Shown here piece after piece: positions 3,020 through 54,883 of a DNA stretch of 64,000 nucleotides. The translations under genes and the position numbers were made by a program. Each line of letters begins with the position of its first letter. The first letter of the stretch is position 1. The notes under the pieces were generated by a model. The model ran no database searches. It had not been told where the DNA came from and worked only from the letters and a program-made list of their open reading frames with translations. Source of the DNA: Schmidtea polychroa (lineage: Eukaryota); contig CM097885.1 of assembly GCA_044892525.1 (NCBI GenBank), positions 12,588,001-12,652,000 of the forward strand. Reading direction: 5' to 3'.

Positions 3020-15348
<12,329 letters not shown>

Positions 15349-19480: not shown

Positions 19481-22070
19481 GGAATATATGTAAAGAGTAA
19501 TTATCCAGAATTGATTGAATCAAAATATTTCAAGTATTATGGAGAGCATGCTGTTAAATAATTTGCTAAATTTATTAATAAGATGAATAAGAAATTAGGG
19601 AAAATATTAAAAACTAATTATCCAATAAATATTTCTACACATGATGATGTTTCTATATTATATAATGGCGCATCTAGAGGTTATTATTGTAAAAAAGAAT
19701 TCTCTGGAGAAGAAAATCCGAAAGTTTTGGATCATGATCATTTTAAACAAGAAAATAATTATAGAGGTGTGGCTCATAATTCATGTAACATGCAAGCTAA
19801 ACCTATCACTTTCATCCCAATTTATTTTCATAATGCTAGTGAATATGATAACCATTTAATATTCAGAGAGTTGGCTCCGAAAATTAGAAAGGTTTTGACA
19901 AGTAAAGATGAAAATTATATATCATTCAATGTTGGAGTTTGTAGATTTCTAGGCTCGTATAGAATGATGGCTTTTGGATGAGACTATTCAGCTTCACTTT
20001 TAAAACCTGAAGAATGTAAAGTGTATAGTGAATATTATAGAAATATCCCAGTATGAAAAGGGATATATCCTTATGCATACATCTCTGGGAGTTAGTTTAG
20101 AGATGTTGATGACAAAATGAGCGAGGAAGAATTACCAAATATTAGAGAATTCTATTCACATTTGAAACAATCTAATATTTCCACCCAAGATTATAATTAT
20201 GCTCAAGAACCTTGGGAATTATTATTAAATTGTAGAACTATGAAAGATTACACCATGAATTATTTAAGGATGGATGATGCATGTCTCTTGGTTGATGTAT
20301 TATGAAATTGATCCATGTTATTGTTATTCATCTCCTGGATTGACACGGTTGGCAGGATTGAAACATACTAAAGGAAAATTAAAATATTTTAAACATGAGG
20401 CTTTTGATCAATTATTATTTATAGGAATTGGAGTGAGAGGAGGAGCCTCTGGAGCATATGGATCAGAGAATGAATTCAATGATGAAAAAACTAAATTCTG
20501 GAAAAATTTAGGATTACATAATTTGATTGCTGAACCAAATAATTATTTATATTATTTTGATGCAAATTCTTTCTATCCAACAGCAATGATTGAAGGGTTG
20601 CCAGCTGGAGAAATGAAATGGTGTAGAGACTTGAGTTGGCAACCTTCAGAGAATTCTGTAGAAGGGTTTATTTACAAAGTAGATTTAAAATATCCAAATA
20701 GTATAAAAGACAAAACTAAATATTTCCTTTTTTGTCCTGAGAAAATAAAAGTACCCCATCAATGGTTATCTCCTTGGGAAATTTAAAATAATTTGAATGG
20801 ATACAAGACAACTGAAAAATTAATTCAAACTCACCTTGATAAAGAGAATTATGCTGTGGAAGGAAGGATGTTGGATTGGTATTTGAAAACTGGAATGGTT
20901 TTGGAAAAGGTTCATTCAAAATTAATGTATAAAAAATCAAAATGGTTGAAATCTTATATAGAGTTTAATATAAAAAAGAGATTTGAGGCTAAAAGGAAAC
21001 AAGATAAATTTGGAGATTTCTTTTATAAATTATTAAATAATTCATTTTATGGCAAGCCTTTGGAGAATGTTAGAAACCGTCAGAATATTGAAATTGTAAA
21101 TAATAAAGAGAGGTTTCTTGTTTTGTCTGCAAAGACTGGATTTAAAAGAATGAAAATATTTTCAGAGGATTTTGCTGCAGTTCATTTTAAAAAGAGTGTT
21201 ATAAAATTTGATAAATTTAATTATGTAGGGTTTATAATTTTAGAATTATCAACAACGTCGAATTCATGTTCAATCTCCATAATTAATAAATTAAACAAAT
21301 AAAATTATTAAATTTATTTTATTCACAAAACTGCGCTTTTTTGTAATATTCAAACAATCTGTTCGAGGCTTTTTTATTATTTTAATTTTGTTGCTGATTT
21401 CAATGCTGGTTTAATTTATTTTAATATTTAATATATTTTAATTTATTTTTATATTTTAAACTTACTTTAAGTTATTAATTTAAATATTTATATAAAAATT
21501 TATGTAATCTGACAAATACAATTTAAATGTTTATTAGCAATATTCAGTTTTAACTTAAACGTGAATTCTACCCTTTCAGTTGGTAATATACAAATCTATA
21601 TATGATATTCTCTACAAAACTTATAGAAAAGATTTAAGATACATTTTGGGGATACAGATTCAATAATTTTAGAATTGATAAATAATGAATCTATAGATAA
21701 AATAAAAGATTATATTCATGACACAAAGTTTGGATATTTTAAGGATGAAATGGGTGAAAGGAAAAAGATAACCAGATTTTGTGGTTTAAAATCTAAAATG
21801 TATTTCTTGGATATTTTAGATTTGGAAAGGAATACGAATAAATATACAACAAATATACAAGTATACAACAAATATTAATTTTGATACAGCTGTAGATTGT
21901 CTTTTAGGAAAACCTCAAGCTAATGTAAAAGATTGGAAAATAAGATCTGATAAACACCATATAATGTTAAGAGAAGAAACACGTAAAGGTTTGAATAATT
22001 ATGATGATAAGAGATATATTTTAAATAATGGAATTACAACATTACCTTATGGAAATAATAAGATTAAACT
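19481..22070 (+). pseudogene. Polinton/adintovirus-type protein-primed DNA polymerase B, many frameshifts, AT-rich insertion ~21255-21590
   Basis: DHDH..YRGVAHNSCN, FHNASEYDNH, YFDANSFYPTAM, KLLNNSFYGK, GDTDS (~21650), FCGLKSKMY, YDDKRYIL..TLPYG in colinear order. Confidence 0.92.
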
Positions 22071-24845: not shown

Positions 24846-26312
24846 TCATAATTTTTCAATTCTGCACCTGAGCAGCAATTTATCCCTTTTGGCTGCTAAT
24901 TCATTGATTGAGAGCTCACCATATTGATAAAGGCAAATTGGATTATTTCTGTCATCTGACGGTTTCCTCCATTTGGCATCACGAGGGCGATCTGAATATT
25001 TTATTGACCTGCTCTTATAAATGTTGCCATTTGCTGGATCGATCACATCGATTGTCACGGATTGATTGAACGGCCAATCCAATTGCTCATCATTTGCCCC
25101 GCGCATCAAACAGAAACCAACCATCACCCAATCACCCCCAATCCACATCCTCAAGCACATTTTGTAACCGATTGGCCCAGAATAAAATGCCTCGCTGTAA
25201 ATATTTTCACCTCTCTTTTGTTGTGAAAATTTATCGATTTCCCATTCAAAAAATCCGTAATTTATATATTTTTCATTTGCTAATTTTGTTTCATTTTGCC
25301 GACTTTCAATGGCGCATTTCGCCATTTCAAGCTGCAACTGAATCTCAAATTCAAACATTTCAAATAATCAATAAATTACCTTTTCATTCTCCTGTTGCAG
25401 CCGCTGCTCGCATTTCTCTTTCATCTCATCAATTTGCTGTTGATATTTTGATTCAATCACCTCAATTTGCTGTCTGATCTGCTTTGCATCAATAATAAAT
25501 CAATAACAAATCAAACCAATATACAAACTTGATTGATTGATGCAATATTTGTCTCCATCTCCATTCTCAATGAGCGATTCTCATTCTTCAATGCCACCAT
25601 TTCCTCATTCAATTCTTCTATTTCCTCTTTGTTCTCCGCCTCTTTCCTTTCAATATTGCATAATTTCAGCTACAATCACAAAATATCAATAAAATTAATT
25701 ACAAATAAAATTTACATTGAAATTATCAAATTGTTGTTTGAATTGCGACATTTCTCCTTTCAATCCGATAATTTCGTCACGCAATCTCACATTCTCCTCT
25801 CTCATTGATTGCATTTCATTGCATAAATTACTGATCTGATCGATCAATAATTGGCTATGGGCTTCATTGTTCTCATTGATATGGACTTTCATTTCGTCCT
25901 TCTCCACCTCATTCATTTCGCATCCAATTCTATTAAACGGACATCTGATTGGCTGCTTGTTGCATGTTCTCATGTGGCTCTCCATCATGCACAACTCGGT
26001 TTTCAATTCACAATTTTGCATTGGGCATTTTACAATAACTTCAGATATTTTGAAATTGGCTACATGATCCACAGAAACATCTTTAGTGAAAAGAATCGTT
26101 TGAACTTGACAATATTTTGCTGCTCCTGGACAGAATTTATCTTTTCCATCCAAATAATGCTCAATGCAATCAGAACAAAAGCGACAACCGCAAGGAGCAT
26201 TGCAAGCTTTTATCATTAAACATTTGCAAATTCTGCATATCAATTCACTGCTAATTTCATTATCAAATTCAAATTTATTTCTCTTCATCATTTCCCATAC
26301 GCTTGCAAACAT
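24846..26312 (-). CDS. TRAF-family protein (RING, TRAF zinc finger, coiled coil, MATH); exons 26312-25716, 25669-25529, ~25480-25380, ~25340-24846
   Basis: CRICKCL..APCGCRFCSDCI..CP RING; CPMQNC..H...C..CPFNRIGC; MATH motifs YSEAFY..GYKMCLR, LMRGANDEQLDWPF; GT-AG introns keep the frame. Confidence 0.9.
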
Positions 26313-28938
26313 TTTATCTAAAATTATCAAAATTATCAAAATATTTCAACATTTTTTCCTCTGACGTTTATAATTTCAATATTTATAATTTGTATTTTGA
26401 TGTAGATAAAGAAATATCATATAAGTATTGTATTTTGACTTTGAGCGCAATTTAAAATATTTTTTTTTATTTTAATGTAAATTTTCAGTGTTTTTCTCAT
26501 TTATTTTAAATCTTACAAATTTATTTAAAATAAAATTTGATAACAAAACGAAAAATTTTGATGGAAAATTAAATAAAATTTTTTAATAGAGAATCCAAAT
26601 TAATAATAGATCAAAATATAAAAATAAATATTTTTTATAAAATATTAAAATAAAATTTATTTAAACAGATTAGAAAGGAATTCAAAATCATCAGAGCGAA
26701 AATAGAAATTCAAATAATGAGGACTTTTTTCCCCAATTTCACCATTGATTTTGTTCCATTGAATTTATTAAAGAGCTTGAATACTATAAATCAGTAAATA
26801 TCGATGCTTTTGATATATTTACTCATTTATAGTCTTCAAGAACTTTTAATAAAATCAAATTTATTTTACGAAATACTTTTCAACAAAAATTTTATTAATT
26901 TCTAAAGGGAAAATTATTTAAGATTTGAATAACATTTTACTGGGTAACGCTAAACGGGTTATAAATGTATTCAGAAATTGTGGGGTTTCGGCCTTTGATC
27001 TCATGATCTCGTTATGGTTATAAATATTGGGAATGATCCACAATTGGATAAGGATATTTCACTCATCCAAATATTAGAATATAATTCACTCAGAACATTT
27101 AATCTAAATCTTGTATCAAGAATTTTATGAAATAATTAAAATAAGTCAATCTGGAAAATGAAAAAATAAATAAAATATTAATCTATGAAAATGCTAAAAA
27201 TCCAAATATTTTTTTCAGATTTGAATAAGTTCAAATCAATTGTGAAAATAAATCAATTAAATATGTCATTATCAAATTATTAAAATATTTCAAAGTTTTT
27301 CAACATTTATAAATTATAATTATAAATAATAATTATTTCCTCTTACTTTTGAAATTTCAATATTTAAAATATGTTTTTTGATGTAGATGAACAAACATTT
27401 TATAAATATTGGTTTTTAGCAAAAAATTAATACTAATGTTAATCTTCAATTTTTTTCTTATTTATTTGTAACTAAATTTCCAAAATTTTTGTAAAAAACA
27501 AAATTAATATTTTTAAATATCTTTCAAAATTATTTAAATCAAAATTTGAAAACAGAGTAAAAATTGATGAGAAATCGTATCAAATGAAAAACTGTGTAAT
27601 AAATGCTAAATTATTTTGTGTTATTTATTTATAAATTGCAATTACTAAATCTCTCTGTGTGTGTGCAAGACCTAGCCCCAATATACGAACCTATCACTAT
27701 TGATTTCAATGAAAAAGATAAATGCATTCAGTGCAAGATATCAAACTCATTATTGAGCGCCCTGGATAGATAAATATTTTTAGCAACATTTTCTAGTAAA
27801 AATATTAATAATCTATAATTATAAAATGTGACGATGAAAGTTTCTAGAGCTATGATTACGAATCGAATGATTTACAAATACTTTTGTTTAAATGTTAAAT
27901 ATTTGAGATGAAAGCTGCAAACCAAAAAAATCAGTATATTTGATCAATATCAATATTTCAACTTTATTGATCATGTTGAGAATTTATTTACCGTATATAG
28001 TCGTGTATAAGCCGATCCGTATGTTGAGGTCTCGATATTCGGGAACACTCAACTTACTGGTTCTTATATACGTACAAATTATATCAAAAGACAAAGTAAT
28101 TTCTAAAACTTTTATTATAATGAAAAATTTACCAAATATGAATTTGTCTGCTAGATTAAAAAAAATCTCAAAATCCTTCAAATATCCAACCGAATATGCT
28201 TGTATGTACTGTGTGAATGTTATGTGTTCTCTTGCTAAGTTGCGTGTAGACTTTTGAAACTTTCTGTTTGTCTGTTCGAGTTTTAGCACTAATAAGGATT
28301 AACCTTTTTAGTATGTTAACGCGGTTAAAATTTTGGGGCGAAAAAAATGAATTTTGACTCGCTATTTATACTTTTTCTTTTAAGAGAAAATGATTAAGAA
28401 TTTAATTTAATATATTTAAAGTATTCTTAAGTATGCTTAAAAAATGAATTTAATATATTTTTCCAGATGTTTTTCCTTAATACTCTAACAGATATTATTT
28501 AACCATATGTTTTTCTTATAATTAATTTAGTACTCTATTATTTAATAATTACAAAATTTATATTTCTAATTATTTTATAGTATTATTATTATTTCATTAT
28601 ATTATTTATCTCTACTTATAAAACTAACTATTAATGATTTAATTTACCCTTTTATAAAAATATTAAATATGTATACAGAAAGATATATTAAATAAAAATT
28701 AACAAGCTACTCAAAAATATGTACAAACTTCTATAGAATAAAAATAATAAAGACATACATCAATAATATCATAAAAAATAAAATAAGTAAAATAAAGAAT
28801 AGTCCAAATGACACAGCATGAATAAAGTAAATAATGAATTTAGTCAACACATAATTGTCAATATTTTGAATTGTCCGGCTTTGGTTGTTTGGGTTCCACG
28901 TAGATATTGACTCTGAACTTGTTGCTGCCCGTTCTATA

Positions 28939-30765
28939 TTAGTGTGTTAGTTCAAATTCTTCGATTCTTCTTCCTCTGTCATCCAACACTCCTCCTAGGG
29001 CCGATAAAGTAATGTCCTCATTACCTTTATCGCTGAGGACCAATTCAATTTCGCAACCGGTTATATACATTGTTGCCCTTTGGAATCCTTTCTTCAATGC
29101 CAATTTTAACACATCACCATCAATAATTCGTCTACCGAAGTGTTGATGTATTTCTTTTTCCGAGATAGTGGATCTTCCCTCTTTGATGATGAACATTGGC
29201 TCCTCCAACTCGACATTTGGCTCTGGTCCTAGTTCGTCATCTATCTGCATTGCTTCGCTAGGTGAGAAATATTCTTCATCCGAGTCTAAATCACACTGTG
29301 GGTCAGCATAGTTGTAACTACTTGATGTCTGAGGTTCTTCCTTGATTGTAATTGTTTGTGGTTTTTTGTCCTCCTTGACGAATATGATGTCATCATCGCT
29401 GTCCATTAGTTCATCTTCAAAGGTACGTCTGCTCCCATCTTTATTGAATTTCAATTCTCTTTGTGAGGGTTCGATATATATATCTTCCTCAAATTCCTCT
29501 GGCTCATCGCTGTTTTCTTCTATTGGACTGAGTTGATGGCTATTATTTTCCTTTTGGAATGCTGTCATGTCCCACCTTATGACTTCTTCCCACTGCTTTT
29601 CGACCAAGAGGTAAATGACTTTTGCGATTAGTGTTGTATCTTCTGCTGAGAACGGTTCGGGTTTTTTGAGGATGTTGTTGATTGCTTTGTCTTTCTTCCA
29701 TTCTGGGTGTGTTGCGATTACTTTGTATGCGAGATTCGATAGTTTGATTCTGTGTGGTGCTACATTTTTGACGAATGAACACATGAACACATCTTCAGCT
29801 AACTCTCTGACTCCCATGACATTGTACAGATCTAATGTCAGCGTCTTGAGTTTCTTTATTATTTGGTATCCCACAATGATTTTTCCGAGTAGCAGCTTCT
29901 GTATGTCGATCAGCGCTTGGTATTCGTCTTCATTTCCTCTTATTGAATCCCTGTCTGCTCTTGTCTTCTCCGGGTAATAATGTTGGATTTTGGTGCGTGG
30001 AGTCACCTTTTTATTGTATACGATTTCTCCTCTAAAATTCCTGATGCATATCTCGACTGGTCTGCGATTGTTATTGATGTCGCATACGTCTTTGACATCG
30101 ACAAACATGATTGCCCTTTGTCGTTCGGGGATTGACAACTGTTGATGTGTGAATGACATCCGTTTCGAGATGAAATCTTGATGTATTACGATATCCGACT
30201 GTATCATCTCTAATTCTCTGAAAGGATTGGGTATGGTTGGGACATATAGAATTTCGATAGCCATCACACAGGGTAAATTGTTCATTTGGATGACCAAATT
30301 GTTGAAATCGTTTGGCACGCTTCGATTAGTCTTCATCGTCTTGATCACCACCGTGCAGTTGCTTGTTGTTATAATTGGGATTCGTTGTTGGCAAATTGAG
30401 ACCTCCGTTCTGGTCATATAGAATAGTATTCTATGTGGGACTTTTCTTCCTTCATTTGCTGCGATATCTGCATTTTCGAACATATCATAGGTGCCTATTA
30501 TATCTCTCAGCTTTATCCTTCGGGCTTCATTAAATTTAACTAAGTGCATTTCTCTTTCTTCGATTTCGCACTTCATTTCATTGGGTATGCAGACCTGGTT
30601 AGGGAAACTTCTGATGGTGATTGGTGAGCCGTCTGAGGTGATTTTATTTTGCAAATTTTTGTAGAAACTGTGGTATAGTTTTTGAATGGAGCAGCTGTAT
30701 TGTTGGACTGGACGTTGTATGGGATTGAATGGTTTGGGATTGACTGTGGTATTGTTGGATTGCAT
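28939..30765 (-). CDS. 608-aa retroelement accessory protein with an ISG20/REX4-like (DEDDh-fold) domain and acidic C-terminus
   Basis: PVEICIRNFRGEIVYNKKVTP..IQHY..IQKLLLGKIIVGYQI follows the REX4/ISG20 pattern; probable ATG at 30765 follows an acceptor-like TTTTTTTAG. Confidence 0.65.
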   Translation of the reverse strand: MQSNNTTVNPKPFNPIQRPVQQYSCSIQKLYHSFYKNLQNKITSDGSPITIRSFPNQVCIPNEMKCEIEEREMHLVKFNEARRIKLRDIIGTYDMFENADIAANEGRKVPHRILFYMTRTEVSICQQRIPIITTSNCTVVIKTMKTNRSVPNDFNNLVIQMNNLPCVMAIEILYVPTIPNPFRELEMIQSDIVIHQDFISKRMSFTHQQLSIPERQRAIMFVDVKDVCDINNNRRPVEICIRNFRGEIVYNKKVTPRTKIQHYYPEKTRADRDSIRGNEDEYQALIDIQKLLLGKIIVGYQIIKKLKTLTLDLYNVMGVRELAEDVFMCSFVKNVAPHRIKLSNLAYKVIATHPEWKKDKAINNILKKPEPFSAEDTTLIAKVIYLLVEKQWEEVIRWDMTAFQKENNSHQLSPIEENSDEPEEFEEDIYIEPSQRELKFNKDGSRRTFEDELMDSDDDIIFVKEDKKPQTITIKEEPQTSSSYNYADPQCDLDSDEEYFSPSEAMQIDDELGPEPNVELEEPMFIIKEGRSTISEKEIHQHFGRRIIDGDVLKLALKKGFQRATMYITGCEIELVLSDKGNEDITLSALGGVLDDRGRRIEEFELTH

Positions 30766-30910
30766 TTTTCTAAAAAAACAATATAAACATACATATTTAC
30801 AGCGCATTTGAGGCTTTACCTTATACGCTTCAATATAAATAAAAATATAAATATATGTGAGTTTAAATATTATCATTGACCAATAGGAATTGAAATTATC
30901 TATATTATTT

Positions 30911-31460
30911 TTAAACCAATGAGGACATTGTGTATTGTCCTGGCCTATACTTATCCAAATGAAAATGCCCTGGTACATTTTTGACCAGTCGGTGCCGATA
31001 CCGCTGCCTTTTCCATTTGTATTTTTTATACACTTGAACACTGGTGATAATAGCTAAAATACTCAATGCTAAAATGCTTGATGAAATTACATAGAAAGGC
31101 CATCGTGGTTTAGCAGGTTTTACTTGAAATGCTCTTAGTTCATCCCAGTTATTTATGATTATGGGTTTTCCCGTAGGTAATTTTATCAGTTTCCTATCAA
31201 ACTGTCTTAGATTTTTTATTATTAATTTTTTATATACTTGTCTAGTTACTTTAAATGTCGTTTCTCTGTCTGTGTTTGTTATCGTTTGTAATGACTGTTG
31301 GGTGGATGCCGAATTTGTGGTAGTTATTGTTATGGTGGTTGTTGGCATGCTATTATCTATGGGCTTATATATGTTTGTGATAATGGTTCTTATTCTTTTG
31401 CACCTTACTTGTGATGTGTCAACTAAGGTATTCCATTGTGCACAAAGTGTGTAATTAGTT
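30911..31460 (-). pseudogene. 3' remnant of a membrane protein (Thr-rich stalk, TM helix, basic tail), joined by deletion to the truncated RT
   Basis: PTTTITITTTNS...WPFYVISSSILALSILAIITSVQVYKKYKWKRQRYRHR. Confidence 0.55.
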
Positions 31461-31952
31461 CTAATGTCCTAAGAATAATGCTGAAGGCTCTGCCCATTTA
31501 CACTTAGTGGGTTTTATTTTGATTTTTGCTTTTCTTAATCTTTCTAGTACGTTAGCTATATCTTTTAGATGTTCCTCAAATGTTTTTGATGAAATTAAAA
31601 TATCATCCATATATACTGCGCAATGTTGTACGTCTACTAATACTGTATTCATATAAAGTTGAAATGTTGCTGGCGCATTAGTTAACCCAAAAGGTAATCT
31701 TGTATATTCATATAAACCGTCTTCTATCACAAAAGCTGTCTTTTCCGCATCTCCCTCTTCCATTTGAATTTGCATGTAGCCTTTATTTGCATCTATTACT
31801 GTGAAATATTTAGTATCTCTAAGTTTATCATATTGTTCTTGTGCTTTTGGGAATGGGTATGAGTCTTTTACTGTTACATCATTTAATTTACGATAATCAA
31901 TGCACATTCGAATTTCCCCATCTTTCTTTCTAACTGGTACGATAGGTGATGC
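31461..31952 (-). pseudogene. Ty3/Gypsy reverse transcriptase; RNase H and integrase deleted
   Basis: In frame after SQ*ASP (probably TGG>TGA): RMCIDYRKLN, KTAF, LPFGLTNAPATFQ, YMDDILI, FLGH. Confidence 0.95.
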
Positions 31953-34415
31953 TCATTGTGAAAAACTTTGCTTTATTACGCCTGCCTCTTTTAATTCTTT
32001 AATTTGTCGTTTTATTTCCTCCCTCAGTTTATATGGTACACTATAGGGTCTCTGTTTTATTGGTCTAGCATTCCCTGTATCGATTACATGTTTGATAATG
32101 TCAGTATCTCCTAAATCAAATTCGTGTTTTGCAAAAACATCACTATATTCGTCAAGTAATATTTGTAGTTGTAGTTGTTGTGTTTCATTTAGATAATTAT
32201 TATTTATTTTAATTTTATCATAAAATTTGATATTATTCGCTCTACTCTGTTCGACCATTCTTTCACTGACATCCTTCGTCATCGACATCTCACATACTTC
32301 AAATGTTTGCTCAAATTCACCTTTGAACAACTTTCCCAATTTTGTACCTTTATGAATTTTTACTTTATTTCTTTCGTAATTCGCGATTCTTATTGGAATT
32401 ATCCCATTATTTGGAATTACACACTCGTCTGTTAACATTACATTATGATTTCGTGATATTGCCGTTTCAGGCTCGAAAATGAAAGTGTCCTCACTTTTAA
32501 CATTAACTTTTACTGGAATTATATGATCACTTTGATACTCTAGTTCAAATGTCTCTAATGCAATTACCTCAGTAAATCTTGCGTCTTGATATATTGCCTT
32601 CCGTTTGACTGTACTATCCGTTAAATCGATTACACAGTTTTTTAACTTTTTGAGTATGTCCATCCCAAGGACACATACGCATTTACATTCTGCTACTACC
32701 TTGAAGACATGTTCAACCACTTGATCCGAAAAGTGGACTGTTAATTCGATATCTCCTTTTAATGGTATGTAATGTGATGATAATGAAATTACTCTATCTC
32801 TTGTGCTCACGATATTTTTCTTTTGGTTTCCAGTTAACTGATCTTCACGAATCATAGAAGCTGCTGCTCCTGTGTCACATAATGCCTTTATTATCGTATC
32901 ATTTATCACTATTTGTAATTTAGGCCTTGCTTCATTTAACCCTTCTAATATATCGTCAAGTTCTAACCCGTAACATCCATAAGTTTTCCTTGGAACACAA
33001 TGACAATTACCATTTTCACCTGGGATTCTAATTTCAATATTATTTCTCAATTCTGTCAATTGTTCTCTTTGATTATCATATAACCCAATATGTGGTTGCT
33101 CAGTATTTTCTGATCTGTTTGTATCGTCCTCTTTCTCATTGGTGATCATTATTTCACCCTCTTCCCTTCGACTTTTCATCCATTTGATTTCCTTATCGTG
33201 CCTCGCAGTGATCAAATATTTGGCTATGAATGGACATAAACATGCTATCATTTTATATGAATTACCAAAAACTTGTCTCAGTTGTCTTAACGAAACTAAT
33301 GATGAGCAAATCATTTTCAATAGTGCTACTGTATAATATATACCCAATATAGTGGAAAACGTATTTCCGAGAATCGCAAAATATCCCCATATGCTGTATA
33401 ATACTCTATACACAACTTTCTTGAAGTGCTCTTTTGATAATAATACATCAAAGTTGTAATTTCCTCCATAACTATTTTCGATGATTTTGTTTACCATGAT
33501 AGAAAGAACTTTTTCTTTTTCATGAGGAAATAACATATGTTTTCTGGCGCTCTCTATCGCCTCTCTCGTATACATCCCATTGTTATCCATTTCGTTGACT
33601 TCCTGAAATTCTAACTTTTTCTGAAGTTCAGTTAGTTCTAGTTTTTGTGGTTTAGTCGCTTCTTTTCTATCTGACATTGTAATCCACATATCATCATTTA
33701 TTTTGTATAATGGATCTAATAGATTAGTACATTTATCAATTTTTCTCGGAACATAGTCTTTATCTGTTAATATCCTTGTTATTGGTTGGAGGTATACAGT
33801 TTCTCCTTTATACACTACTGGCAATTCGTTTGTGCACTTATTATTCGTTGCTAACGATACGCTAACCGGTTTACACTGAAATGTTTGTATCACTTCACCG
33901 ACAACTCTTGCAAATGTCCCTTTCTCTGCAAATAAAATTGGTTCCATTAAATCTGGGTTTGTGACTGCAACCGCCATCTTTGTTCTTAATATTTCTCTAT
34001 TAAGTTTACAATCGTTTGCAATAGTTGCTTGATATACTTTGTCCAATTGTACTAACTGATGATGATAGAAATAGTCAATTTTATTATTAAAATATGGTGC
34101 TAGCTTGACGTCGAATTTATCTATTCTCGATTTTGCCTCTTTAATTTCACTTCCGCTGATATAAATTCCCTCATAATTTGTTTGCACGACTGCCTTGCCA
34201 CATTTTATGCTTTCACCTTTTCCTACAAATCTCATCGCCTCTGTTTCAGAATCTGACATGTATATTGTTGGGGTATCTCTTTCTTGAATTATCGTTGCTC
34301 GTCGTTTTTGGTCTTTGATGCTCTTGGATTCTACATCCGTAAACTGTTTACCTCCTATCGTTCTGAATTTCAGTGTCTTTAATTTAGTTAGATGGCATTC
34401 GTATTTATTCACTCT
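31953..34415 (-). CDS. Polyprotein: C-terminal half of a chuvirus-like (class III) glycoprotein with TM region, then retropepsin protease, linker and RT N-terminus
   Basis: CG..VVQTN, DCKLNREIL, GEVIQTFQCKPVSV..CTNELPV..YLQPITRIL; hydrophobic region IWGYFAILGNTFSTILGIYYTVALL; ALCDTGA..LGMDIL; KHVIDTGNARPIKQRPY. Confidence 0.85.
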   Translation of the reverse strand, partial: RVNKYECHLTKLKTLKFRTIGGKQFTDVESKSIKDQKRRATIIQERDTPTIYMSDSETEAMRFVGKGESIKCGKAVVQTNYEGIYISGSEIKEAKSRIDKFDVKLAPYFNNKIDYFYHHQLVQLDKVYQATIANDCKLNREILRTKMAVAVTNPDLMEPILFAEKGTFARVVGEVIQTFQCKPVSVSLATNNKCTNELPVVYKGETVYLQPITRILTDKDYVPRKIDKCTNLLDPLYKINDDMWITMSDRKEATKPQKLELTELQKKLEFQEVNEMDNNGMYTREAIESARKHMLFPHEKEKVLSIMVNKIIENSYGGNYNFDVLLSKEHFKKVVYRVLYSIWGYFAILGNTFSTILGIYYTVALLKMICSSLVSLRQLRQVFGNSYKMIACLCPFIAKYLITARHDKEIKWMKSRREEGEIMITNEKEDDTNRSENTEQPHIGLYDNQREQLTELRNNIEIRIPGENGNCHCVPRKTYGCYGLELDDILEGLNEARPKLQIVINDTIIKALCDTGAAASMIREDQLTGNQKKNIVSTRDRVISLSSHYIPLKGDIELTVHFSDQVVEHVFKVVAECKCVCVLGMDILKKLKNCVIDLTDSTVKRKAIYQDARFTEVIALETFELEYQSDHIIPVKVNVKSEDTFIFEPETAISRNHNVMLTDECVIPNNGIIPIRIANYERNKVKIHKGTKLGKLFKGEFEQTFEVCEMSMTKDVSERMVEQSRANNIKFYDKIKINNNYLNETQQLQLQILLDEYSDVFAKHEFDLGDTDIIKHVIDTGNARPIKQRPYSVPYKLREEIKRQIKELKEAGVIKQSFSQ

Positions 34416-34690
34416 AGTAGTAAGATGTGTCACCTCCAGGACATGTCACATCCAGGACAGGTCAAGGTCTAATTTTTTAAGGTCAAGGTCAAATTTTTAA
34501 GGTCAAGGTCAAATTTTTTAAGGTCAAGGTCAAATTTTTTTTTAAGGTCTGATATCATTTACTGATATCATTCACACATGATTTAGTAACAGTTCATAGT
34601 GCAAATCATGTGAATTTCCGTTGATGTAATCGATTATTAACGCATAATTTCATACCACATGTTATACCTTCAAATATTTTAATCAATAAT
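34416..34690 (+). repeat. Polinton terminal repeat with tandem AAGGTCAAGGTCA units; second copy at 53747-54002
   Basis: Near-identical ~260-275 bp at both sites. Confidence 0.92.
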
Positions 34691-37133: not shown

Positions 37134-37532
37134 TTACAACAATACATTTTTTCGCAATTCCACAAGTAATGCATGAATTATTTCTCGTTTCTGTAGATTT
37201 ACAAAACATGTACAACTATCATCCCCACAAGTATTCTGCATATTATTTTTACAAAAATCACAATTTTCAACATCATCGGTATAACATGTAATCGTAGCAT
37301 GATCCATATGAATTAAATCTATTACATTTATTCCAGTTATTTCATAAATTTTGTAAAACACAACTTCTGGAGCACAATACATTAAGGAATTGTTCAAATT
37401 CGGATAAAAATCTTCAATTTTATCAATCAAAATTTTTAGTATAGTTTCTAAACAAAAATCAGTAAATTTAAAATAAAAACAGTTACCTTCATGTTCAATC
37501 ATTGTTGAATAAATATTCAAGCAAATCTTCAT
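37134..37532 (-). CDS. Polinton protein C, unknown function, Cys-rich C-terminus
   Basis: Homologous in position and pattern (FYP/YYP, YEITGI/YNETRI, CxC) to 42061..42381. Confidence 0.6.
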   Translation of the reverse strand: MKICLNIYSTMIEHEGNCFYFKFTDFCLETILKILIDKIEDFYPNLNNSLMYCAPEVVFYKIYEITGINVIDLIHMDHATITCYTDDVENCDFCKNNMQNTCGDDSCTCFVNLQKREIIHALLVELRKNVLL

Positions 37533-38007
37533 TACTTATATTTGAAGAAATTGTTAAAGATCCAATCAAATCCTTTACATCGTTTATAATTCCTTCAACA
37601 ATAGTATGAAAATCTAAATTTTTAATACCTAGTACAACTATTTTACCACTCGAAAATATATTTACACATAGTGGATTATATTTTGTATAACGCAGAGCGG
37701 GAAATAATTCAGGCTCATATATACCATCTCCATCTAATAACTTTGCTAAATTATTCAAATTAATAGATTGTTCAACCTTGGTAGCTATAGTAAGACTTTG
37801 AACTTGAATATCTTTGATATTATATTGCAAATTCTTGAATTCGATAGGCTTCTTACAACCCATTATACGACATTTACCATTTTTGAAAAATATAATAGTA
37901 TATTTTCCAGTTTTGTCGACATATTATTGTGGTTTACACTTGGGGAAATTCATCATACCAACAGTTTCCAAAGACACACGACCTCTATAATTAATATTTG
38001 TCAACAT
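37495..38007 (-). pseudogene. TATA-binding-protein-like gene of Polinton 1 (one premature stop)
   Basis: MLTNINYR...KPQ*YV..IIFFKNGKCRIMGCK...INLNNLA..YEPELFPALRY..VNIFSSGKIVVLGIK. Confidence 0.88.
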
Positions 38008-38120
38008 TTCTACTGAATATTTATAAAAATCAAGTATATATATATATTATATTATAGAGTAATTAAATCAATTTATTCTTTACGATATAAACAAAATTAA
38101 TTTTTAAATAAATATTAAAA

Positions 38121-38747
38121 ATGGAACTAAGAAATGATGCTGTATATCAAATAGTCGGACCAAGTGGTAGCGGCAAAACTTTGTTTGTTTGCAAATTACT
38201 AAAATCACATTTATTTGAATCAAAATTTAACAAAATTTATTGGCATCGAGGTGCTGATCAAGAACACGGATTGACTCAATCAAGTTTCTGTAAATTGAAA
38301 AATATGAAAATAGTAGAGGGATTTGATAAAAATTGGTCCAGTAGACTAAAGAAGGGGGATGTCATAATTATTGATGACTTGTATCAAGAAGCTAATAAAG
38401 AAAAGAATTTCAATAATTTATTTACTAAAATCAGTAGACACGTTGGTGTAACTGTTATTTTTATAACTCAAAATCTATTTCATCAAGGTGGTGCACATCG
38501 AACACGTAATTTAAATGTACAATATTTAGTTATTTTCAAGAATCCTAGAGATGCAACAGTGATTGATTTTCTTGCACGTCAAGCATACCCTAACAATCGT
38601 AATTTTCTTATCAGTGCATTTCAAGATGCTACAAAAATACCTCATGGATATATATTTCTTGATTTCACACAACAATGTCCCGATGATTTACGAGTAAAAA
38701 CAGATATTTTCAACCCAAAAGGTGCCATGGTTTATAAACAAAGTTGA
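38121..38747 (+). CDS. Polinton A32/FtsK-like DNA packaging ATPase
   Basis: GPSGSGKT, VIIIDD, FTKISRH, FITQNLF, R..NVQYLVIFKNPRD, PHGYIFLD. Confidence 0.93.
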   Translation: MELRNDAVYQIVGPSGSGKTLFVCKLLKSHLFESKFNKIYWHRGADQEHGLTQSSFCKLKNMKIVEGFDKNWSSRLKKGDVIIIDDLYQEANKEKNFNNLFTKISRHVGVTVIFITQNLFHQGGAHRTRNLNVQYLVIFKNPRDATVIDFLARQAYPNNRNFLISAFQDATKIPHGYIFLDFTQQCPDDLRVKTDIFNPKGAMVYKQS

Positions 38748-38765
38748 AAACCTCTATGAATAATA

Positions 38766-39299
38766 ATGTTTCTAAAAGCAAGGGTGAAAAATATTAGGAA
38801 ATTAAGCAAAAGTATTAAAAAGAGTATTAAAGTTCCAAAGGTTCCACCAACAACTAGTTATACACCATCTAAAAAACTTGTAACTGAAAATTTCTCTGCA
38901 ATGAATCTTATTTCGAAAAATCCTAAACCTAAACGTGAAACCCGTAAAACCCGTAAAGCCGGTAAAAAAGTAATTAAAAATCATCGCAGTTTTCCATTTT
39001 TTAATGCATTGTTAAAGGCCCCGAGTATGAAAAGAATGAATATATTGCAATCATTCCCAAATTTTGTTGTCGATGATTTACTCAATATTATACTTAAAGT
39101 AGTCAAAGGCAAAATTAAAATCAGTAAATCAAAAAAGCATTTATTGAGCAAACATAGGAAACCATTGTTATCATTAGTAAATAATAAAAATCGTAAGCAA
39201 ATGAGGAAAATTATATATAAACAACAAGGTGGATTTATTGGTGCATTGATACCTCTGGCATTATCATTATTAGGTGGAGTTGTAGGAAATCAATCATAA
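38766..39299 (+). CDS. Polinton basic core-type protein with GGF-amphipathic C-terminus
   Basis: Lys/Arg-rich, ending QQGGFIGALIPLALSLLGG; lies between ATPase and integrase. Confidence 0.7.
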   Translation: MFLKARVKNIRKLSKSIKKSIKVPKVPPTTSYTPSKKLVTENFSAMNLISKNPKPKRETRKTRKAGKKVIKNHRSFPFFNALLKAPSMKRMNILQSFPNFVVDDLLNIILKVVKGKIKISKSKKHLLSKHRKPLLSLVNNKNRKQMRKIIYKQQGGFIGALIPLALSLLGGVVGNQS

Positions 39300-39360
39300 A
39301 CAATGGGTGCTAATCCTTCATTACCTAATTTAAATTTTAATTTTAAATCTTCTTGCTGTA

Positions 39361-40475
<1,115 letters not shown>

Positions 40476-40479
<4 letters not shown>

Positions 40480-40853
40480 ATTTTTATACTATTTTACCGA
40501 GCAATAGTTGCCCATTAATTCATCCAGACAATCAAGCCAGTAAATTTATGGTCAATCTCCAGAATCCGATTTCTCTAAATGGTGACTGGGAAGTTGCACT
40601 GCAAGATTTTACATTCGTGTACAACACATTCCCATTTTATAGTCAATGTAAGATTGATTTCAAAAGGAATATTGTGAAAACATGTAGCGGTATCTTTATT
40701 ATTAGTAATTATGATAAAACATATCATATTCCGAACCAAATATTAGATTCGCATTGCTATATATTTTACAAGGATGGATTAAATATCAGTTGTGATTTTA
40801 AACCATTTACAATAACATTCGAAACTATTGAAGATGCCAAACGAATGGGTTGA
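40476..40853 (+). pseudogene. Polinton minor capsid (penton)-like gene, 5' part, cut at the junction
   Basis: FYTILPSNS..DNQASKFMVNLQNPISLNGDWEVAL; start overlaps the integrase stop. Confidence 0.75.
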
Positions 40854-41268
40854 TAATAACTAAATATTGTACATTTAAATTACGTGTTCGATGTGCACCA
40901 CCTTGATGAAATAGATTTTGTGTTATGAAAATAACTGTTACACCAACATGTCTGCTGATTTTTGTGAATAAATTATTAAAATATATTTCTTTATTGGCTT
41001 CTTGATACAAATCATCGATAATGATGACATCATCTTTCTTCAAACGACTTGACCAGTTTTTATCAAAACCCTTTATTATTTTCATGTTTTTCAACTGACA
41101 GAAACTTGATTGTGTCAATCCGTGTTCTTCGTCGGCGCCCCTATGCCAATAAATATTGTTGAATTTTGTTTTAAACAAATTTGATTTTAGTAATTTACAA
41201 ACAAATAAAGTTTTCCCGCTACCACTTGAACCAACGATTTGGTATACTGCATCATTACGTAATTCCAT
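40853..41268 (-). pseudogene. Packaging ATPase of Polinton 2, 3'-truncated
   Basis: MELRNDAVYQIVGSSGSGKT...NVQYLVI, highly similar to 38121..38747, then breaks. Confidence 0.92.
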
Positions 41269-41332
41269 TTTTTTTTTAAATTTAAACTATATAATTATTG
41301 TTTATATTGATAATTTTAATGAACTCTTTTTT

Positions 41333-41386
<54 letters not shown>

Positions 41387-41407
41387 TTTTATAATTATTT
41401 CATTAAA

Positions 41408-41872
41408 ATGCTTTCAAATATAAATTACAGGGCAAAAACTGATGTATCAAAAATGGTATTTCCAATAGGGAAACCACAACAAATTATCAATAGAAGTAAT
41501 AAATATCCAATAATATATTTCAAAACTGGTAAATGTAGAATTATGGGGTGTAAGGAAATAATCAAAGCTAGTGAATATAATGTTTATGATTTAGAAATAC
41601 AATCGATAACCGTAACTTCCGATATAGGTTTTTCTTGTAATTTAAATAAATTAGCTAAATTAATACCATTCTTTTACGAACCAGAATTATTTCCAGCTTT
41701 GAGTTATATAAAATATAACCCTATGTGTGTAAATATATTCGCTAGCGGTAAGATAGTAATTCTTGGAATAAAAAATATTGATTACAAATGTATAGTTGAT
41801 AATATCATATCTGAAATTAAATCAATAATTGAAGGAAAAGAATTTTTAGATTTTTTATTATCACTTAATTAA
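41408..41872 (+). CDS. TATA-binding-protein-like protein of Polinton 2 (154 aa, open frame)
   Basis: MLSNINYR..IIYFKTGKCRIMGCK...CNLNKLA..YEPELFPALSY..VNIFASGKIVILGIK. Confidence 0.9.
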   Translation: MLSNINYRAKTDVSKMVFPIGKPQQIINRSNKYPIIYFKTGKCRIMGCKEIIKASEYNVYDLEIQSITVTSDIGFSCNLNKLAKLIPFFYEPELFPALSYIKYNPMCVNIFASGKIVILGIKNIDYKCIVDNIISEIKSIIEGKEFLDFLLSLN

Positions 41873-47351: not shown

Positions 47352-48405
47352 TCATTCGAAAGGTAGCATCGTCTCATCATTAGCTTCAATTGCTGCAATT
47401 GTTCTTCCTAAATTGTTGATCTTTTGTTGATTGCTTGTGGTTCGATGGGCATAATAATTATTGTTTCTCATGTTTGAAATAATTTGAAATTTCCTTCTTT
47501 CCAAATTTGTATAGCAGTCAATCTCCTTGTGTCCACGTAAGTGACATCTCTGGCATTGAATCGTTGAACATTCTCGCCGTACGTGGCCTTCAACTCCACA
47601 TGCAAAACACGTCATTTTCTTTTTCATTTGGCATTCTTGACTAACATGACCAGTTTTCTTGTATGTCCAGCATTCCAATTGTCGGTTACTGACGTTTCAC
47701 TGCTTGAAATTATTATTTCCGTTTACCATTCTTTTTTAGAGCAACATCTCTGTAACTTCTGTAGTTTTGAACAACCGGTAAAGTCTTCACAACATTAATA
47801 AGGCCCATAATTTTGTTTACCTTTTCTAATTTCTTTATTGTCGCTTTTATTTCTTCTGATGTTTTCAAATCTTTCATCTCGATCTCTTTTTTAACTTCTC
47901 GATCTCTTACACAGTTTGTAAGCAGGCATTTTTCTATTTCTTCTTCATCCCATTTGTGCGCTATTAATTTCTTTGTCATCATTTTAATTTTCTCTATAAA
48001 AGTTTCAGCTGAATCTGATGCTTGTTCATAACTCAAAGCTTCTTTTAGATCATCCATTAATGATGTCGGTTTCGAAAATGAACATCGAAGTTTTTCTTCC
48101 ATAGTTTTTCCTTTGGCTGCTTCATAATCTTCCATTAGCGATCTGTCAAGTAATGTTGTAATTAATATTACTTGCATCCTAATTGTTGTTTTTGTCGCGC
48201 CAAAAAACCTTTGACAATCCTTGATAAAATTTTCTAGATCATCGCCTTTGTGAAATTTCTCAGGTAATAGTCTGCTTATCAATAAATCCGTGGTCGTGGT
48301 CGCCATGTTAGACCCAATTAAATTCAAATCTTCTTCAAGCATTTATTTTTATAACAAGTTCAAAATTCTGCCGTTTACTAGCGTTTTTAAGCACCGAGTC
48401 GTGAT
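47352..48405 (-). mobile_element. LTR retrotransposon 5' fragment: possible short LTR, PBS-like site, gag with three zinc knuckles
   Basis: ..TCTAACA|TGGCGACCAC; PEKFHKGDDLENF; CFACGVEGHVRREC and CQRCHLRGHKEIDC plus one degenerate knuckle; frameshifted. Confidence 0.8.
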
Positions 48406-52467: not shown

Positions 52468-52925
52468 TTAAATAATGGCAAAAGCTATTTTAAATGAATT
52501 TAATTTATTGATTTGAATATTTAATAATTTTTAATTTCAATCGATAATCAAACATTTAATGCAATAATAAATATTATTATTAATCTCTATACAATTGAAT
52601 ATAGAAATTCAGCTTCTAAATAACCATTTCCAAGTTATGGGGTTTTCATCAATAATTTCTTTTGACATGTTAACTGAATTAGTGCTTAGGTTAGTCCATT
52701 TTGCTGAGCTAAAACAGATTTTCATAGAAATCAAGTGTTGAGCCTGCAATATATAATAAATCCGATAGGCAAGGAATGAAATAACGAAATTTGTGAGCAT
52801 GAATAGATAATGATGAGTTATTTGTTTCAGCTTTTTCTTGCCAACATCAATTATATTTAGTGAAACATTAAAATATGAAATTATTGTATATAATAATCCA
52901 AATCCAGCAAGAATGAATAGATGCT

Positions 52926-53746
52926 ATGTCATGGATAAAATTAAAGGGAGGATGGAAAATACTGTATGATGAGAGTCTAATCGAAAGTGCTCAGGAAAGC
53001 GTAGAAGATAATATTAATGTAGAAATAGATGATACGGAGGAAACAGTAAAAAATCTAGTAAATAAAACAACTATGAAACCAAGTCAAAAAGAAAGAAAGT
53101 CGACAATGTCAATAGTAATTATAGTAATAACATTGTTATTAGATCTGATAAAAGGGAATAATGCGATCATAGCGTATGACTGTCAGAATCCCAAGTGGGG
53201 ACAAAAATATTCATTGCTGGATGTAGAAAATTGTCCAGAGGCTAATCCAACAAAATTAATTGTAGCAGACCCCAAGATTTTCCATATATATCAGGAATCT
53301 GATTTCATTCACACAGAAGCAGGAGAATGTATAGTCAAATATTCAGAGGAAAGTTTTGTGCGTAACAAGGTGGCAAGAACAATATTAACCCCAACATGGG
53401 CACCAGAAGCAATAATAATAACGCCAGTTGAATGCGAAAATGCATTTAAAACAAAAAAATAAAAACGCCGGATGGATTTGAGTTAGATGCTCAGGTAGGA
53501 GCACGAGTAAGACAATTAGTAAATGTCGTGGGATGGTCATCAACAGGAGGATATTGTGAAGGAGGAAGGTATAAAATATGGGGGCATGTGGCAGACAATA
53601 TTGTAGTGAGACGGCAGTATTATATTGAATTAAGGAAATTCAAAGCGTCATTTGATAGTTCATCAAAAAAAATGATGACACATAAGTTCTGCACATTAGA
53701 TGAGACAAGCTGTGATACAGGCGAGTCAATGATCATATACAGAGTG
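52926..53746 (+). pseudogene. N-terminal half of the chuvirus-like glycoprotein (one frameshift in an A-run near 53455)
   Basis: Signal-like SIVIIVITLLLDLIKGNNA, then IIAYDC..YSLLDVENC, GYCEGG, CTLDETSC; ends IIYRV, continuing as RVNKYEC at 34415(-). Confidence 0.85.
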
Positions 53747-54002
53747 AGAAGTAAGATGTGTCACCTCCAGGACAGGTCAAGGTCTAATTTTTAAGGTCAA
53801 GGTCAAATTTTAAGGTCAAGGTCAAATTTTTTAAGGTCAAGGTCAAATTTTTTTTTAAGGTCTGATATCATTTACTGATATCATTCACACATGATTTAGT
53901 AACAGTTCATAGTGCAAATCATGTGAATTTCCGTTGATGTAATCGATTATTAACGCATAATTTCATACCACATGTTATCCCTTCAAATATTTTAATCAAT
54001 AA
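53747..54002 (+). repeat. Second terminal repeat of Polinton 1, interrupted at 54003
   Basis: AGAAGTAAGATGTGTCACC versus AGTAGTAAGATGTGTCACC; preceded by TSD AGAGTG. Confidence 0.9.
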
Positions 54003-54883
54003 TGTTGGGCCAAGCTCTGAAGGTGTTGGAAAAACGAACCCAGGAAGAGACAGAGTAAATAAAATAAAAACATATAAAAATTACGAGAAATATAGGAAGA
54101 AACAAATTAAACATCCATAAAGAGACAAGAATAACTAAATAAAATAACAAAACCTGTAAAGGGGAAATAAGACAAAAGGGAAGGCACCCAATGAGCATAA
54201 CAGTAAAAGAGAAATAAAATGGCACAAAATTTAAGAAAAACAAATGAAAATTAAAGGAAAACAAAATAAAAATAAAATCATCCATAAGGTTAATTAAAAC
54301 AAAAAATGAAGTTACAATAAAATAGCAATAAAACCACAGAAAAATAGGAGAAAAATAATAAAAAATAGGAAAATAAATAAAACAATAATAGAAATAGGTA
54401 GGGTCATTAAAATATAATATACTACGATAAGAAAAACATAAAATAATAATAAATAACAAAATTACAAGCAAGGTGTGTCCTGATTGGACGGAAAATAATA
54501 TATAAAGAGCAACCAAACTCTGTAGAGTATCATTCTAACCCGAAACTCTACAGGTAAAATTTATTTAAAAATTATCATTCTAACCCGAAACTCTACAGGA
54601 CGAAACTAGGAACCACTCACGAGCACAGACTTACGAACGATATTCATACTTGGACATAACAGATAGTACTTAGAGGCAAATAATAGTCGAGATCGAATCC
54701 AGTTGAGAAGAACCAGTCTAACTAAGGAAAAATTTGACAAAACTTTGATTTCAATCCCAACACCTTCGGAGAATTTTGGTAAATTATGTTTTGAATTTTA
54801 GTATGATAATTTTAATGTTTACTATGAATTTAATATCAAAAGACGTTTTATGTTTCAATAAAATTTATATTTAAAAACAAAAG

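What the first reader, a model, noticed from the sequence alone, without database searches (positions are those of the whole stretch)
28939..30765. ISG20/REX4-like exonuclease-fold accessory gene at the 3' side of the env-bearing element, probably catalytically dead
Seen: a long open frame on the same strand and with the same composition as the retroelement. The central segment follows the REX4/ISG20 pattern, but the catalytic motifs are altered: DxE appears as DVK, GH..xD as GYQIIKK, and H...ED as PFSAED. Established: ISG20 is an antiviral RNase and DEDDh nucleases trim small RNAs. Inference: a pseudo-nuclease acting as an RNA-binding or anti-silencing factor, expressed from a spliced RNA (acceptor-like TTTTTTTAG 4 nt before the ATG).
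Basis: partly seen in the sequence, partly recalled or inferred. Interest (0 to 1): 0.72.

Follow-up and report, generated by a model that had tools for sequence, protein, structure and literature searches.

The report
Dead exonuclease gene in env retrotransposon
A virus-like jumping gene of a flatworm-like animal carries an extra gene shaped like the antiviral RNA-trimming enzyme ISG20, joined to a second, probably AlkB-like domain; most relatives keep the cutting residues, but this lineage has lost them and probably binds RNA instead.

Summary

The family is bimodal: 38 of 54 rows keep all five sites and 16 keep at most two.

Two elements from a metagenome show the same order, env-PR-RT-RH-IN and then this ORF. 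Other copies exist in the host, whose env is about 81% identical to a published planarian errantivirus.

Verdict: an accessory pseudo-nuclease of flatworm-type errantiviruses; a new variant of a known kind (bdelloid DEDDy ORF3).

The parts
28939..30765 (-). Accessory ORF, 608 aa (P0001): DSBH-like domain, pseudo-exonuclease, acidic linker, small C-terminal domain
30226..30696 (-). N-terminal beta-rich domain (aa about 24-180), resembling the 2OG-Fe(II) dioxygenase / AlkB double-stranded beta-helix, with no metal triad
29569..30177 (-). REX4/ISG20-like DEDDh fold (aa about 197-399); D223 kept, and K225, K305, F372, T377 at the other four catalytic sites
29206..29565 (-). Acidic, probably disordered linker (aa 401-520; 36 D+E against 10 K+R)
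28942..29205 (-). Small C-terminal alpha/beta domain (aa 521-608), 47-54% identical in the two nearest relatives; fold not identified
30770..30778 (-). Acceptor-like T7-AG, 4 nt before the ATG; the same arrangement is found in related elements
30911..31468 (-). Frame with a hydrophobic anchor and basic tail, taken to be the remnant of the membrane-anchored polyprotein tail that follows integrase in L001 and L003 (matched by position and layout; no tblastn hit)
31461..31952 (-). Reverse transcriptase core; the copy is cut short after it (no RNase H or integrase)
   Evidence: RVT_1 E 3e-37; loose ends at 31459-31464 in other copies
31953..34445 (-). C-terminal part of a Monjiviricetes-fusion (gB-type) env, in frame with the aspartic protease; a stop separates this frame from RT
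   Evidence: PF24664 E 2.2e-73 and RVP E 1.1e-7
52917..53791 (+). Displaced N-terminal part of the env, in two frames, on the opposite strand 18.5 kb away
34444..34690 (.). 247-nt repeat (98% identical to 53759-54003) abutting both halves of the env; end of an inserted element

Best explanation
The ORF is an accessory gene of a Ty3/gypsy retrotransposon with a gB-type env ahead of pol (flatworm-type errantivirus), lying at the element's 3' end. SHOWN: fold, position, multi-copy state and loss of 4 of 5 catalytic residues. INFERRED, step 1: it is read from a processed RNA joined at the AG four bases before the ATG, either by cis-splicing from a donor in the LTR/leader or by spliced-leader trans-splicing. 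INFERRED, step 2: the family's usual product is an active 3'-5' exoribonuclease with a non-enzymatic DSBH domain in front. In this lineage two metal-binding acids are fixed as lysines, so the pocket would hold an RNA 3' end by charge without cutting it. INFERRED, step 3: the protein acts as an RNA-end cap or decoy that shields element RNA, or sequesters small RNAs or host trimming factors, and so blunts host RNA-based defence. The copy in this window is a decayed element whose accessory ORF is still open.
For: Fold; Atlas features hit RNase_T at 0.94. Element linkage: L001 and L003 encode env-PR-RT-RH-IN followed by the family ORF, and the window's RT is 54-55% identical to theirs. In L007 the ORF is followed by a PBS-like TGGCGCCCGAAC at 4621 and then gag, as expected for the last ORF before an LTR. 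Multi-copy: several distinct contigs per site across the ORF in DNA-type runs, and one 1021-nt contig spans from the ORF into the upstream tail frame. Maintained although dead: D223, K225, K305, F372 and T377 are identical in P0001, P0002 and P0003, whose exonuclease domains differ by 33-40%; that domain is better conserved (60-67%) than the linker (46-54%). The structural P256, R257, G318 and R320 are kept in 15-16 of 16 dead rows, and 8 of 16 dead rows carry Lys or Arg at the second acidic site. Acceptor: 17 of 20 counted accessory ORFs (17 of 23 with three left-out ORFs) against 38 of 1063 other ATGs. Precedent for RNA-binding dead nucleases in piRNA biogenesis, Maelstrom and EXD1: passage in PMC5408684.
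Against: No expression, splice junction, binding or phenotype was observed; an RNA-guessed contig crosses the acceptor unspliced (record 29). All seven loci with genomic context hold intact-type members (six as locus rows, L001 through its 99% match P0019), so element linkage of the dead type rests on this window alone. All seven come from one metagenome dataset, and L004-L007 are 74-84% identical to each other. L002 has no acceptor next to its ATG, and the acceptor pattern was defined after seeing the sequences. Among copy differences inside the ORF, 5 of 9 listed are synonymous, only marginal against neutrality (P 0.02-0.07). No LTR or gag was located for the window copy. Binding without catalysis does not say whose RNA is bound.
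Confidence: 0.55

Rival explanations
1. The protein is a structural or replication cofactor of the element itself (RNA packaging, protection of the genomic RNA or cDNA 3' end inside the particle, or a scaffold through the acidic linker and C-terminal domain) and has nothing to do with host defence.
For: Same anatomy as the best explanation. The ORF holds a fixed last position in several lineages. PMC5408684 proposes 3'-end processing of element RNA for the bdelloid DEDDy ORFs (passage).
Against: The family swings between fully active and fully dead forms, possibly more than once (5 changes once the catalytic motifs are removed, although starred branches force only 1). In L004-L007 it sits among RING and TRAF/MATH genes, which look host-directed.
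Confidence: 0.22
2. The protein works by protein-protein contact only, as a dominant-negative mimic of a host REX/ISG20-type nuclease or as an adaptor for host ubiquitin or apoptosis machinery, and no longer binds RNA.
For: 4 of 5 catalytic residues are lost, there is a 12-residue insertion before ExoIII, and neighbouring cargo genes in relatives are RING and TRAF proteins. One relative, P0026, is fused to a RING finger.
Against: Lysines are fixed in the former active site, and the exonuclease domain is net basic (35 K+R against 27 D+E).
Confidence: 0.12
3. The gene is a hitch-hiking relic under relaxed selection: once an active nuclease, now decaying with the element.
For: The window's element copy is broken in env, between PR and RT, and after RT. 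Dead rows have long branches.
Against: The frame is open for 608 codons, and none of the 12 listed indels falls inside it (18 not shown). The replacement residues are identical in three proteins 33-40% apart. No rows with 3 or 4 catalytic residues were found among 54.
Confidence: 0.07
4. The ORF is a single-copy host gene that happens to lie next to the element, or the protein is still an active nuclease with rearranged chemistry.
For: Pfam finds nothing on the protein itself. D223 and D376 remain and could in principle bind one metal.
Against: Same position in L001 and L003, no introns, A-rich element strand, multiple divergent copies. D376 is not conserved in the nearest relatives (E and S).
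Confidence: 0.04

Closest known systems
DEDDy-type exonuclease ORF3 of bdelloid rotifer LTR retrotransposons Juno and Vesta (PMC5408684; read: part 2 of 5 of the text, plus passages)
   Same: A DnaQ-like 3'-5' exonuclease as a separate ORF downstream of pol; a DEED variant of the motif (24 of 38 intact rows here have Glu at the third site); function undemonstrated.
   Different: Those are RNase D-like DEDDy with intact residues and, in most members, stand in place of env. This family is REX4/ISG20-like DEDDh, coexists with a gB-type env, has an N-terminal DSBH-like domain and includes dead lineages.
GAG-ENV-POL errantiviruses of Platyhelminthes, closest Smed_errantivirus_3 (PMC13524379; read: passages, part 1 of 2 of section 5, Platyhelminthes rows of supplements 1 and 2)
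   Same: gB-type env in frame ahead of PR-RT. An 85-residue env stretch is 69 of 85 identical to the printed Smed_errantivirus_3 row (counted by eye).
   Different: The paper does not mention an exonuclease: 0 occurrences in the main text and in its held supplements. The accessory gene is not annotated there.
ISG20, ISG20L2, SDN1, PAN2 (REX4-like DEDDh exoribonucleases; Pfam RNase_T PF00929)
   Different: P0001 has 1 of 5 catalytic residues, 17-21% identity, extra N- and C-terminal domains, and is element-encoded.
Burro / GYPSM1 giant planarian LTR elements (PMC6431247; read: passages)
   Same: env between gag and pol; accessory ORFs with RING and MATH/TRAF domains, as beside the exonuclease in L004-L007.
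   Different: The passages list no exonuclease for Burro. The polyproteins of L001 and L003 are about 3000-3200 aa as held, against 4900-5100 aa for Burro.
AlkB (2-ODD) ORF of orchid Ty3/Gypsy elements (PMC9289625; read: abstract and outline)
   Same: A 2OG-dioxygenase-type fold carried as cargo by a gypsy element.
   Different: That one is a stand-alone active m6A demethylase. Here the DSBH-like domain lacks the metal triad in 49 of 49 rows and is fused to an exonuclease fold.
Maelstrom and EXD1 (inactive DEDD-fold RNA-binding proteins of the piRNA pathway; passage in PMC5408684 and search listing)
   Same: Nuclease fold with lost catalytic residues; the functional model for the reading given here.
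   Different: They are host genes of other DEDD branches; neither appeared among the 50 rows shown in the fold searches.

Membership tests
REX4/ISG20-like DEDDh exonucleases | DnaQ/RNase H-like fold | tested here: met
REX4/ISG20-like DEDDh exonucleases | Sequence signature (Pfam RNase_T or a profile match) | tested here: met
   Met only through the family: P0001 alone has no Pfam hit at E<=1 and ISG20 at E 0.57. 32 of 64 relatives hit PF00929; profile A1 hits ISG20L2 at 4.6e-33.
REX4/ISG20-like DEDDh exonucleases | ExoI Asp-x-Glu | tested here: not met
   D223 kept, Glu replaced by K225
REX4/ISG20-like DEDDh exonucleases | ExoII Asp | tested here: not met
   K305
REX4/ISG20-like DEDDh exonucleases | ExoIII His-x4-Asp | tested here: not met
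   F372 and T377, by spacing to Y385 and to the ISG20 Tyr
REX4/ISG20-like DEDDh exonucleases | Metal-dependent 3'-5' exonuclease activity | not testable with these tools
   Needs an assay
GAG-ENV-POL Ty3/gypsy errantiviruses (flatworm type) | gB-type / Monjiviricetes-fusion env ahead of PR-RT | tested here: met
   69 of 85 identical to Smed_errantivirus_3 env
GAG-ENV-POL Ty3/gypsy errantiviruses (flatworm type) | pol order PR-RT-RH-IN | tested here: inconclusive
   The window copy has PR and RT only; other copies run on past the RT end; L001 and L003 have the full order
GAG-ENV-POL Ty3/gypsy errantiviruses (flatworm type) | gag ahead of env, paired LTRs, PBS | tested here: inconclusive
   None located for the window copy. 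No Pfam gag hit in L001 or L003 at E<=0.001; gag and a PBS-like site in L007.
GAG-ENV-POL Ty3/gypsy errantiviruses (flatworm type) | Multiple genomic copies | tested here: met
   Several differing contigs per site across ORF, RT and env; depth is not a copy number
2OG-Fe(II) dioxygenases (AlkB / P4H) | Double-stranded beta-helix fold | tested here: inconclusive
2OG-Fe(II) dioxygenases (AlkB / P4H) | His-x-Asp/Glu ... His iron triad | tested here: not met
   0 of 49 rows have both parts in the windows mapped from the model's strand order (the mapping is inferred)
Bdelloid DEDDy ORF3 | RNase D-like DEDDy type (Tyr in ExoIII) | tested here: not met
Bdelloid DEDDy ORF3 | Separate ORF downstream of pol in an LTR element | tested here: met
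   window, L001, L003

The most novel reading that the evidence does not exclude
Flatworm-type errantiviruses are complex retroviruses with their own anti-RNA-defence cassette. A two-domain protein couples a dead AlkB-like domain, acting as a reader of modified or methylated RNA, to an ISG20-like exonuclease that in most lineages destroys, and in this lineage merely caps or sponges, small RNAs or RNA ends. It is one of a row of accessory genes, each fed by its own splice or spliced-leader acceptor.
Probability: 0.2. Interest if true: 0.85.

Novelty: new variant of a known kind. Interest (0 to 1): 0.64.

Why it matters
It adds an apparently unreported accessory gene family to envelope-bearing retrotransposons of a tractable host group, with natural active and dead versions side by side (38 vs 16 rows). 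That makes a standing question directly testable: what do transposon-borne exonucleases do (PMC5408684 left it open), and do invertebrate endogenous retroviruses encode suppressors of piRNA or RNAi defence? An element carrying a look-alike of an antiviral RNase, plus the DSBH-exonuclease fusion, would surprise a specialist moderately. The general idea of an exonuclease ORF downstream of pol is already in print, and no function is shown here.

Tried and rejected
Searches that gave nothing or little:
- Pfam on P0001: no hit. phmmer against PDB: only non-significant hits, including phycobilisome linkers at E 0.02-0.14, rejected as chance because the model does not support them.
- Single-sequence AlphaFold failed (pLDDT 35.5); it was used only as a weak hint for the C-terminal domain.
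- No whole genome is held for this window, so intact copies, LTRs and dN/dS could not be examined.
- Viral-contig scans with A4 and with P0001 found no relative.
- Word-based homologue searches returned 2, 2 and 10 proteins and no useful names.
- Cluster look-ups of 30 relatives named only the Dictyostelium outlier cluster, so the host range of the family is unknown.
- Atlas search of the N-domain: no usable hit. Profile against PDB: no N-domain match of note. pdb_via listed exonucleases only.
- No RNA holder listed. No joint at the acceptor among 15 listed (12 not shown), and contigs cannot show splicing.
- No LTR pair found in the window or in the loci; ARAGORN found no tRNA in L001, L003 or L007.

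Readings I changed:
- My first tabulation of catalytic sites was out of register at ExoIII and was replaced.
- A single origin of the dead forms looked supported (96/82) but fell to 5 changes once the catalytic motifs were removed. It is unresolved, and long branches are involved.

Literature: searches that found no description of this family were. The library lacks most subscription journals and Repbase reports, and bioRxiv supplements are closed, so a Repbase or supplementary annotation of this ORF may exist. PMC554778, PMC3985635 and PMC6338049 (passages) added nothing beyond a mention of DnaQ-like accessory domains. Earlier-finding look-ups by sequence, by one word set and near this place were empty.

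Full report
OBSERVATION. The frame from the ATG at 30765 to the stop at 28939 (minus strand) encodes 608 residues, P0001. Shuffles of the same bases gave at most 200 codons in 200 trials. The ORF is A-rich like the neighbouring env-pol, but richer in GC (40% against 33%; flank 23%).

SURROUNDINGS. Upstream on the same strand lie, in reading order: the C-terminal part of a Monjiviricetes-fusion env in frame with an aspartic protease (31953-34445), an RT core (31461-31952), and a 185-codon frame with a membrane anchor (30911-31468). This copy is decayed. A stop separates the protease frame from RT, RNase H and integrase are missing, and the N-terminal part of env lies on the opposite strand at 52917-53791; both env halves abut the same 247-nt repeat. 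Contigs of other copies leave the window sequence at 31459-31464 from both sides, so that deletion belongs to this copy. An 85-residue env stretch is 69 of 85 identical, counted by eye, to Smed_errantivirus_3 in supplement 2 of PMC13524379. The element is thus a flatworm-type GAG-ENV-POL errantivirus, and the host is probably a planarian (inference; two earlier AI notes on this genome agree, untested here).

CATALYTIC STATE. With ISG20 as printed, the five catalytic sites map to D223, K225, K305, F372 and T377. The Asp of 'PFSAED' is the neighbouring, non-catalytic position. Of the 65 rows, 11 partial ones were dropped. Of the remaining 54, 38 keep all five sites (counting Glu at the third, as in 24 of them) and 16 keep at most two; none keeps three or four. 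Two of the 38 are near-duplicates of other rows, and one dead row (P0029) is short and poorly aligned at ExoIII. The replacement residues are identical in P0001, P0002 and P0003, whose exonuclease domains are only 60-67% identical; the linker is less conserved, 46-54%. Half of the dead rows (8 of 16) have Lys or Arg at the second acidic site, while the structural Pro, Arg and Gly residues persist. This is the pattern of a maintained pseudo-enzyme rather than of decay. Whether catalysis was lost once or several times is unresolved: 1 change with the motifs in the alignment, 5 without them, with strong branches forcing only 1 (46 rows).

LINKAGE. A metagenome scan with an intact-type alignment gave 7 loci, all from one dataset. 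L001 and L003 encode polyproteins of over 3000 residues with env, PR, RT, RNase H and integrase, ending in a membrane-anchored tail, and then the family ORF: directly in L003, after a 222-codon ORF in L001. The window's env and RT are 40-41% and 54-55% identical to theirs. In L004-L007 the ORF ends a row of small ORFs, which in L004 and L006 include TRAF/MATH and (L004) RING genes. In L007 it is followed by about 1.8 kb of non-coding DNA, a tRNA-primer-site-like TGGCGCCCGAAC (pattern recalled) and gag, which fits the last ORF before an LTR in a permuted assembly. L002 is too short to show a neighbour. In the host itself, laid contigs cover the ORF at depths of 619-1108 and 975-4073 in two runs, against 109 and 563 in the outermost flank bin, with several differing contigs per site (depth is not a copy number). 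It is therefore not a single-copy host gene. Limit: all seven loci are intact-type, so the dead type is tied to an element only by this window.

EXPRESSION SIGNAL. An A/T run followed by YAG within four bases of the first ATG occurs at 17 of 20 accessory ORFs counted in L001-L007, and in the window, against 38 of 1063 other ATGs. Three ORFs with uncertain starts were left out and do not match, giving 17 of 23. For the exonuclease ORF alone it is 6 of 7 loci plus the window, or 4 of 5 lineages, since L004-L007 are 74-84% identical. The pattern was set after viewing the data. It fits cis-splicing from an LTR or leader donor (GTAAG sites exist there in L007) or spliced-leader trans-splicing, which flatworms use (listing of PMC12582326). 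No spliced read was seen: only contigs were available, none on record as RNA, and one RNA-guessed contig crosses the site unspliced.

MECHANISM. Shown: an element-borne, maintained, catalytically dead ISG20-like fold behind a DSBH-like domain. Inferred: expression from a joined RNA; a lysine-lined former active site that holds an RNA 3' end without metals; and a role as cap or decoy against host RNA defence (0.55 for the whole chain). Rivals are a purely element-internal RNA or cDNA cofactor (0.22), a protein-only mimic or adaptor (0.12), a relic (0.07), and a host gene or active enzyme (0.04). For fold and element membership alone I put confidence near 0.95, and for loss of catalysis near 0.9.

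COMPARISON AND NOVELTY. Exonuclease ORFs downstream of pol are known from bdelloid LTR elements, but as intact DEDDy enzymes (PMC5408684). The host elements are known (PMC13524379), but that paper never mentions an exonuclease. RING and TRAF cargo is known from Burro (PMC6431247), and an active AlkB from orchid gypsy elements (PMC9289625). Ten literature searches found no report of a REX4/ISG20-type, DSBH-fused, active-or-dead family in errantiviruses; the library is incomplete. An earlier AI note describes a dead Rrp6-like exonuclease as the last gene of a virus-like element in another genome (e1-7470602, untested), which hints that dead nucleases at this position recur. P0001 works like an RNA-binding pseudo-nuclease. 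It descends from the DEDDh exonucleases but fails their catalytic membership test.

VERDICT. A real feature, with the observation confirmed apart from two corrections, the interpretation partly supported, and the function open. New variant of a known kind; interest 0.64.

Noticed in passing
L004:2191-6727, L005:226-2854, L006:54-4652, L007:226-2843: Rows of up to five or more intronless accessory ORFs (RING, TRAF/MATH, small unassigned ORFs, exonuclease), most starting right after a TAATTTTAG-like acceptor; an operon-like cassette inside LTR elements.
   Followed up: partly
L001:7650-9037 and L003:8220-9621; window 30911-31468: After integrase the polyprotein continues in frame into a hydrophobic segment, an ectodomain-like region, a membrane anchor and a basic tail: a second membrane protein besides env, unannotated.
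   Followed up: partly
window 56939-64000 (+): Small ORFs, including a RING gene related to L004:2191 (E 1e-6), a 74-nt tandem array (59663-60550) and the start of a long ORF with weak ubiquitin-like hits; looks like part of a Burro-type element.
   Followed up: partly
window 34444-34690 and 53759-54003: The same 247-nt repeat with AGGTCAAGGTC units abuts both halves of the split env, which now lie on opposite strands; suggests an insertion followed by a rearrangement.
   Followed up: partly
window 37495-41872 and 20268-21302: Polinton/adintovirus-like genes: A32-type ATPase (twice, inverted), integrase with a chromodomain interrupted by a trinucleotide run, TBP-like ORFs, and PolB fragments.
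   Followed up: no
window 24846-26345 (-): TRAF-like gene in two frames (RING, zf-TRAF, MATH), 2.6 kb downstream of the finding and only 23-30% identical to the element-borne TRAFs of L004 and L006; probably a host gene.
   Followed up: partly
P0026 (870 aa): A dead-looking family member fused to a C-terminal RING finger, on a 16-kb contig.
   Followed up: no
window 8219-9391 (+); 47355-48342 (-); 7236-7430 (+): A separate RT fragment, a gag-like fragment of another gypsy element, and an exon of an E1 dehydrogenase host gene.
   Followed up: no
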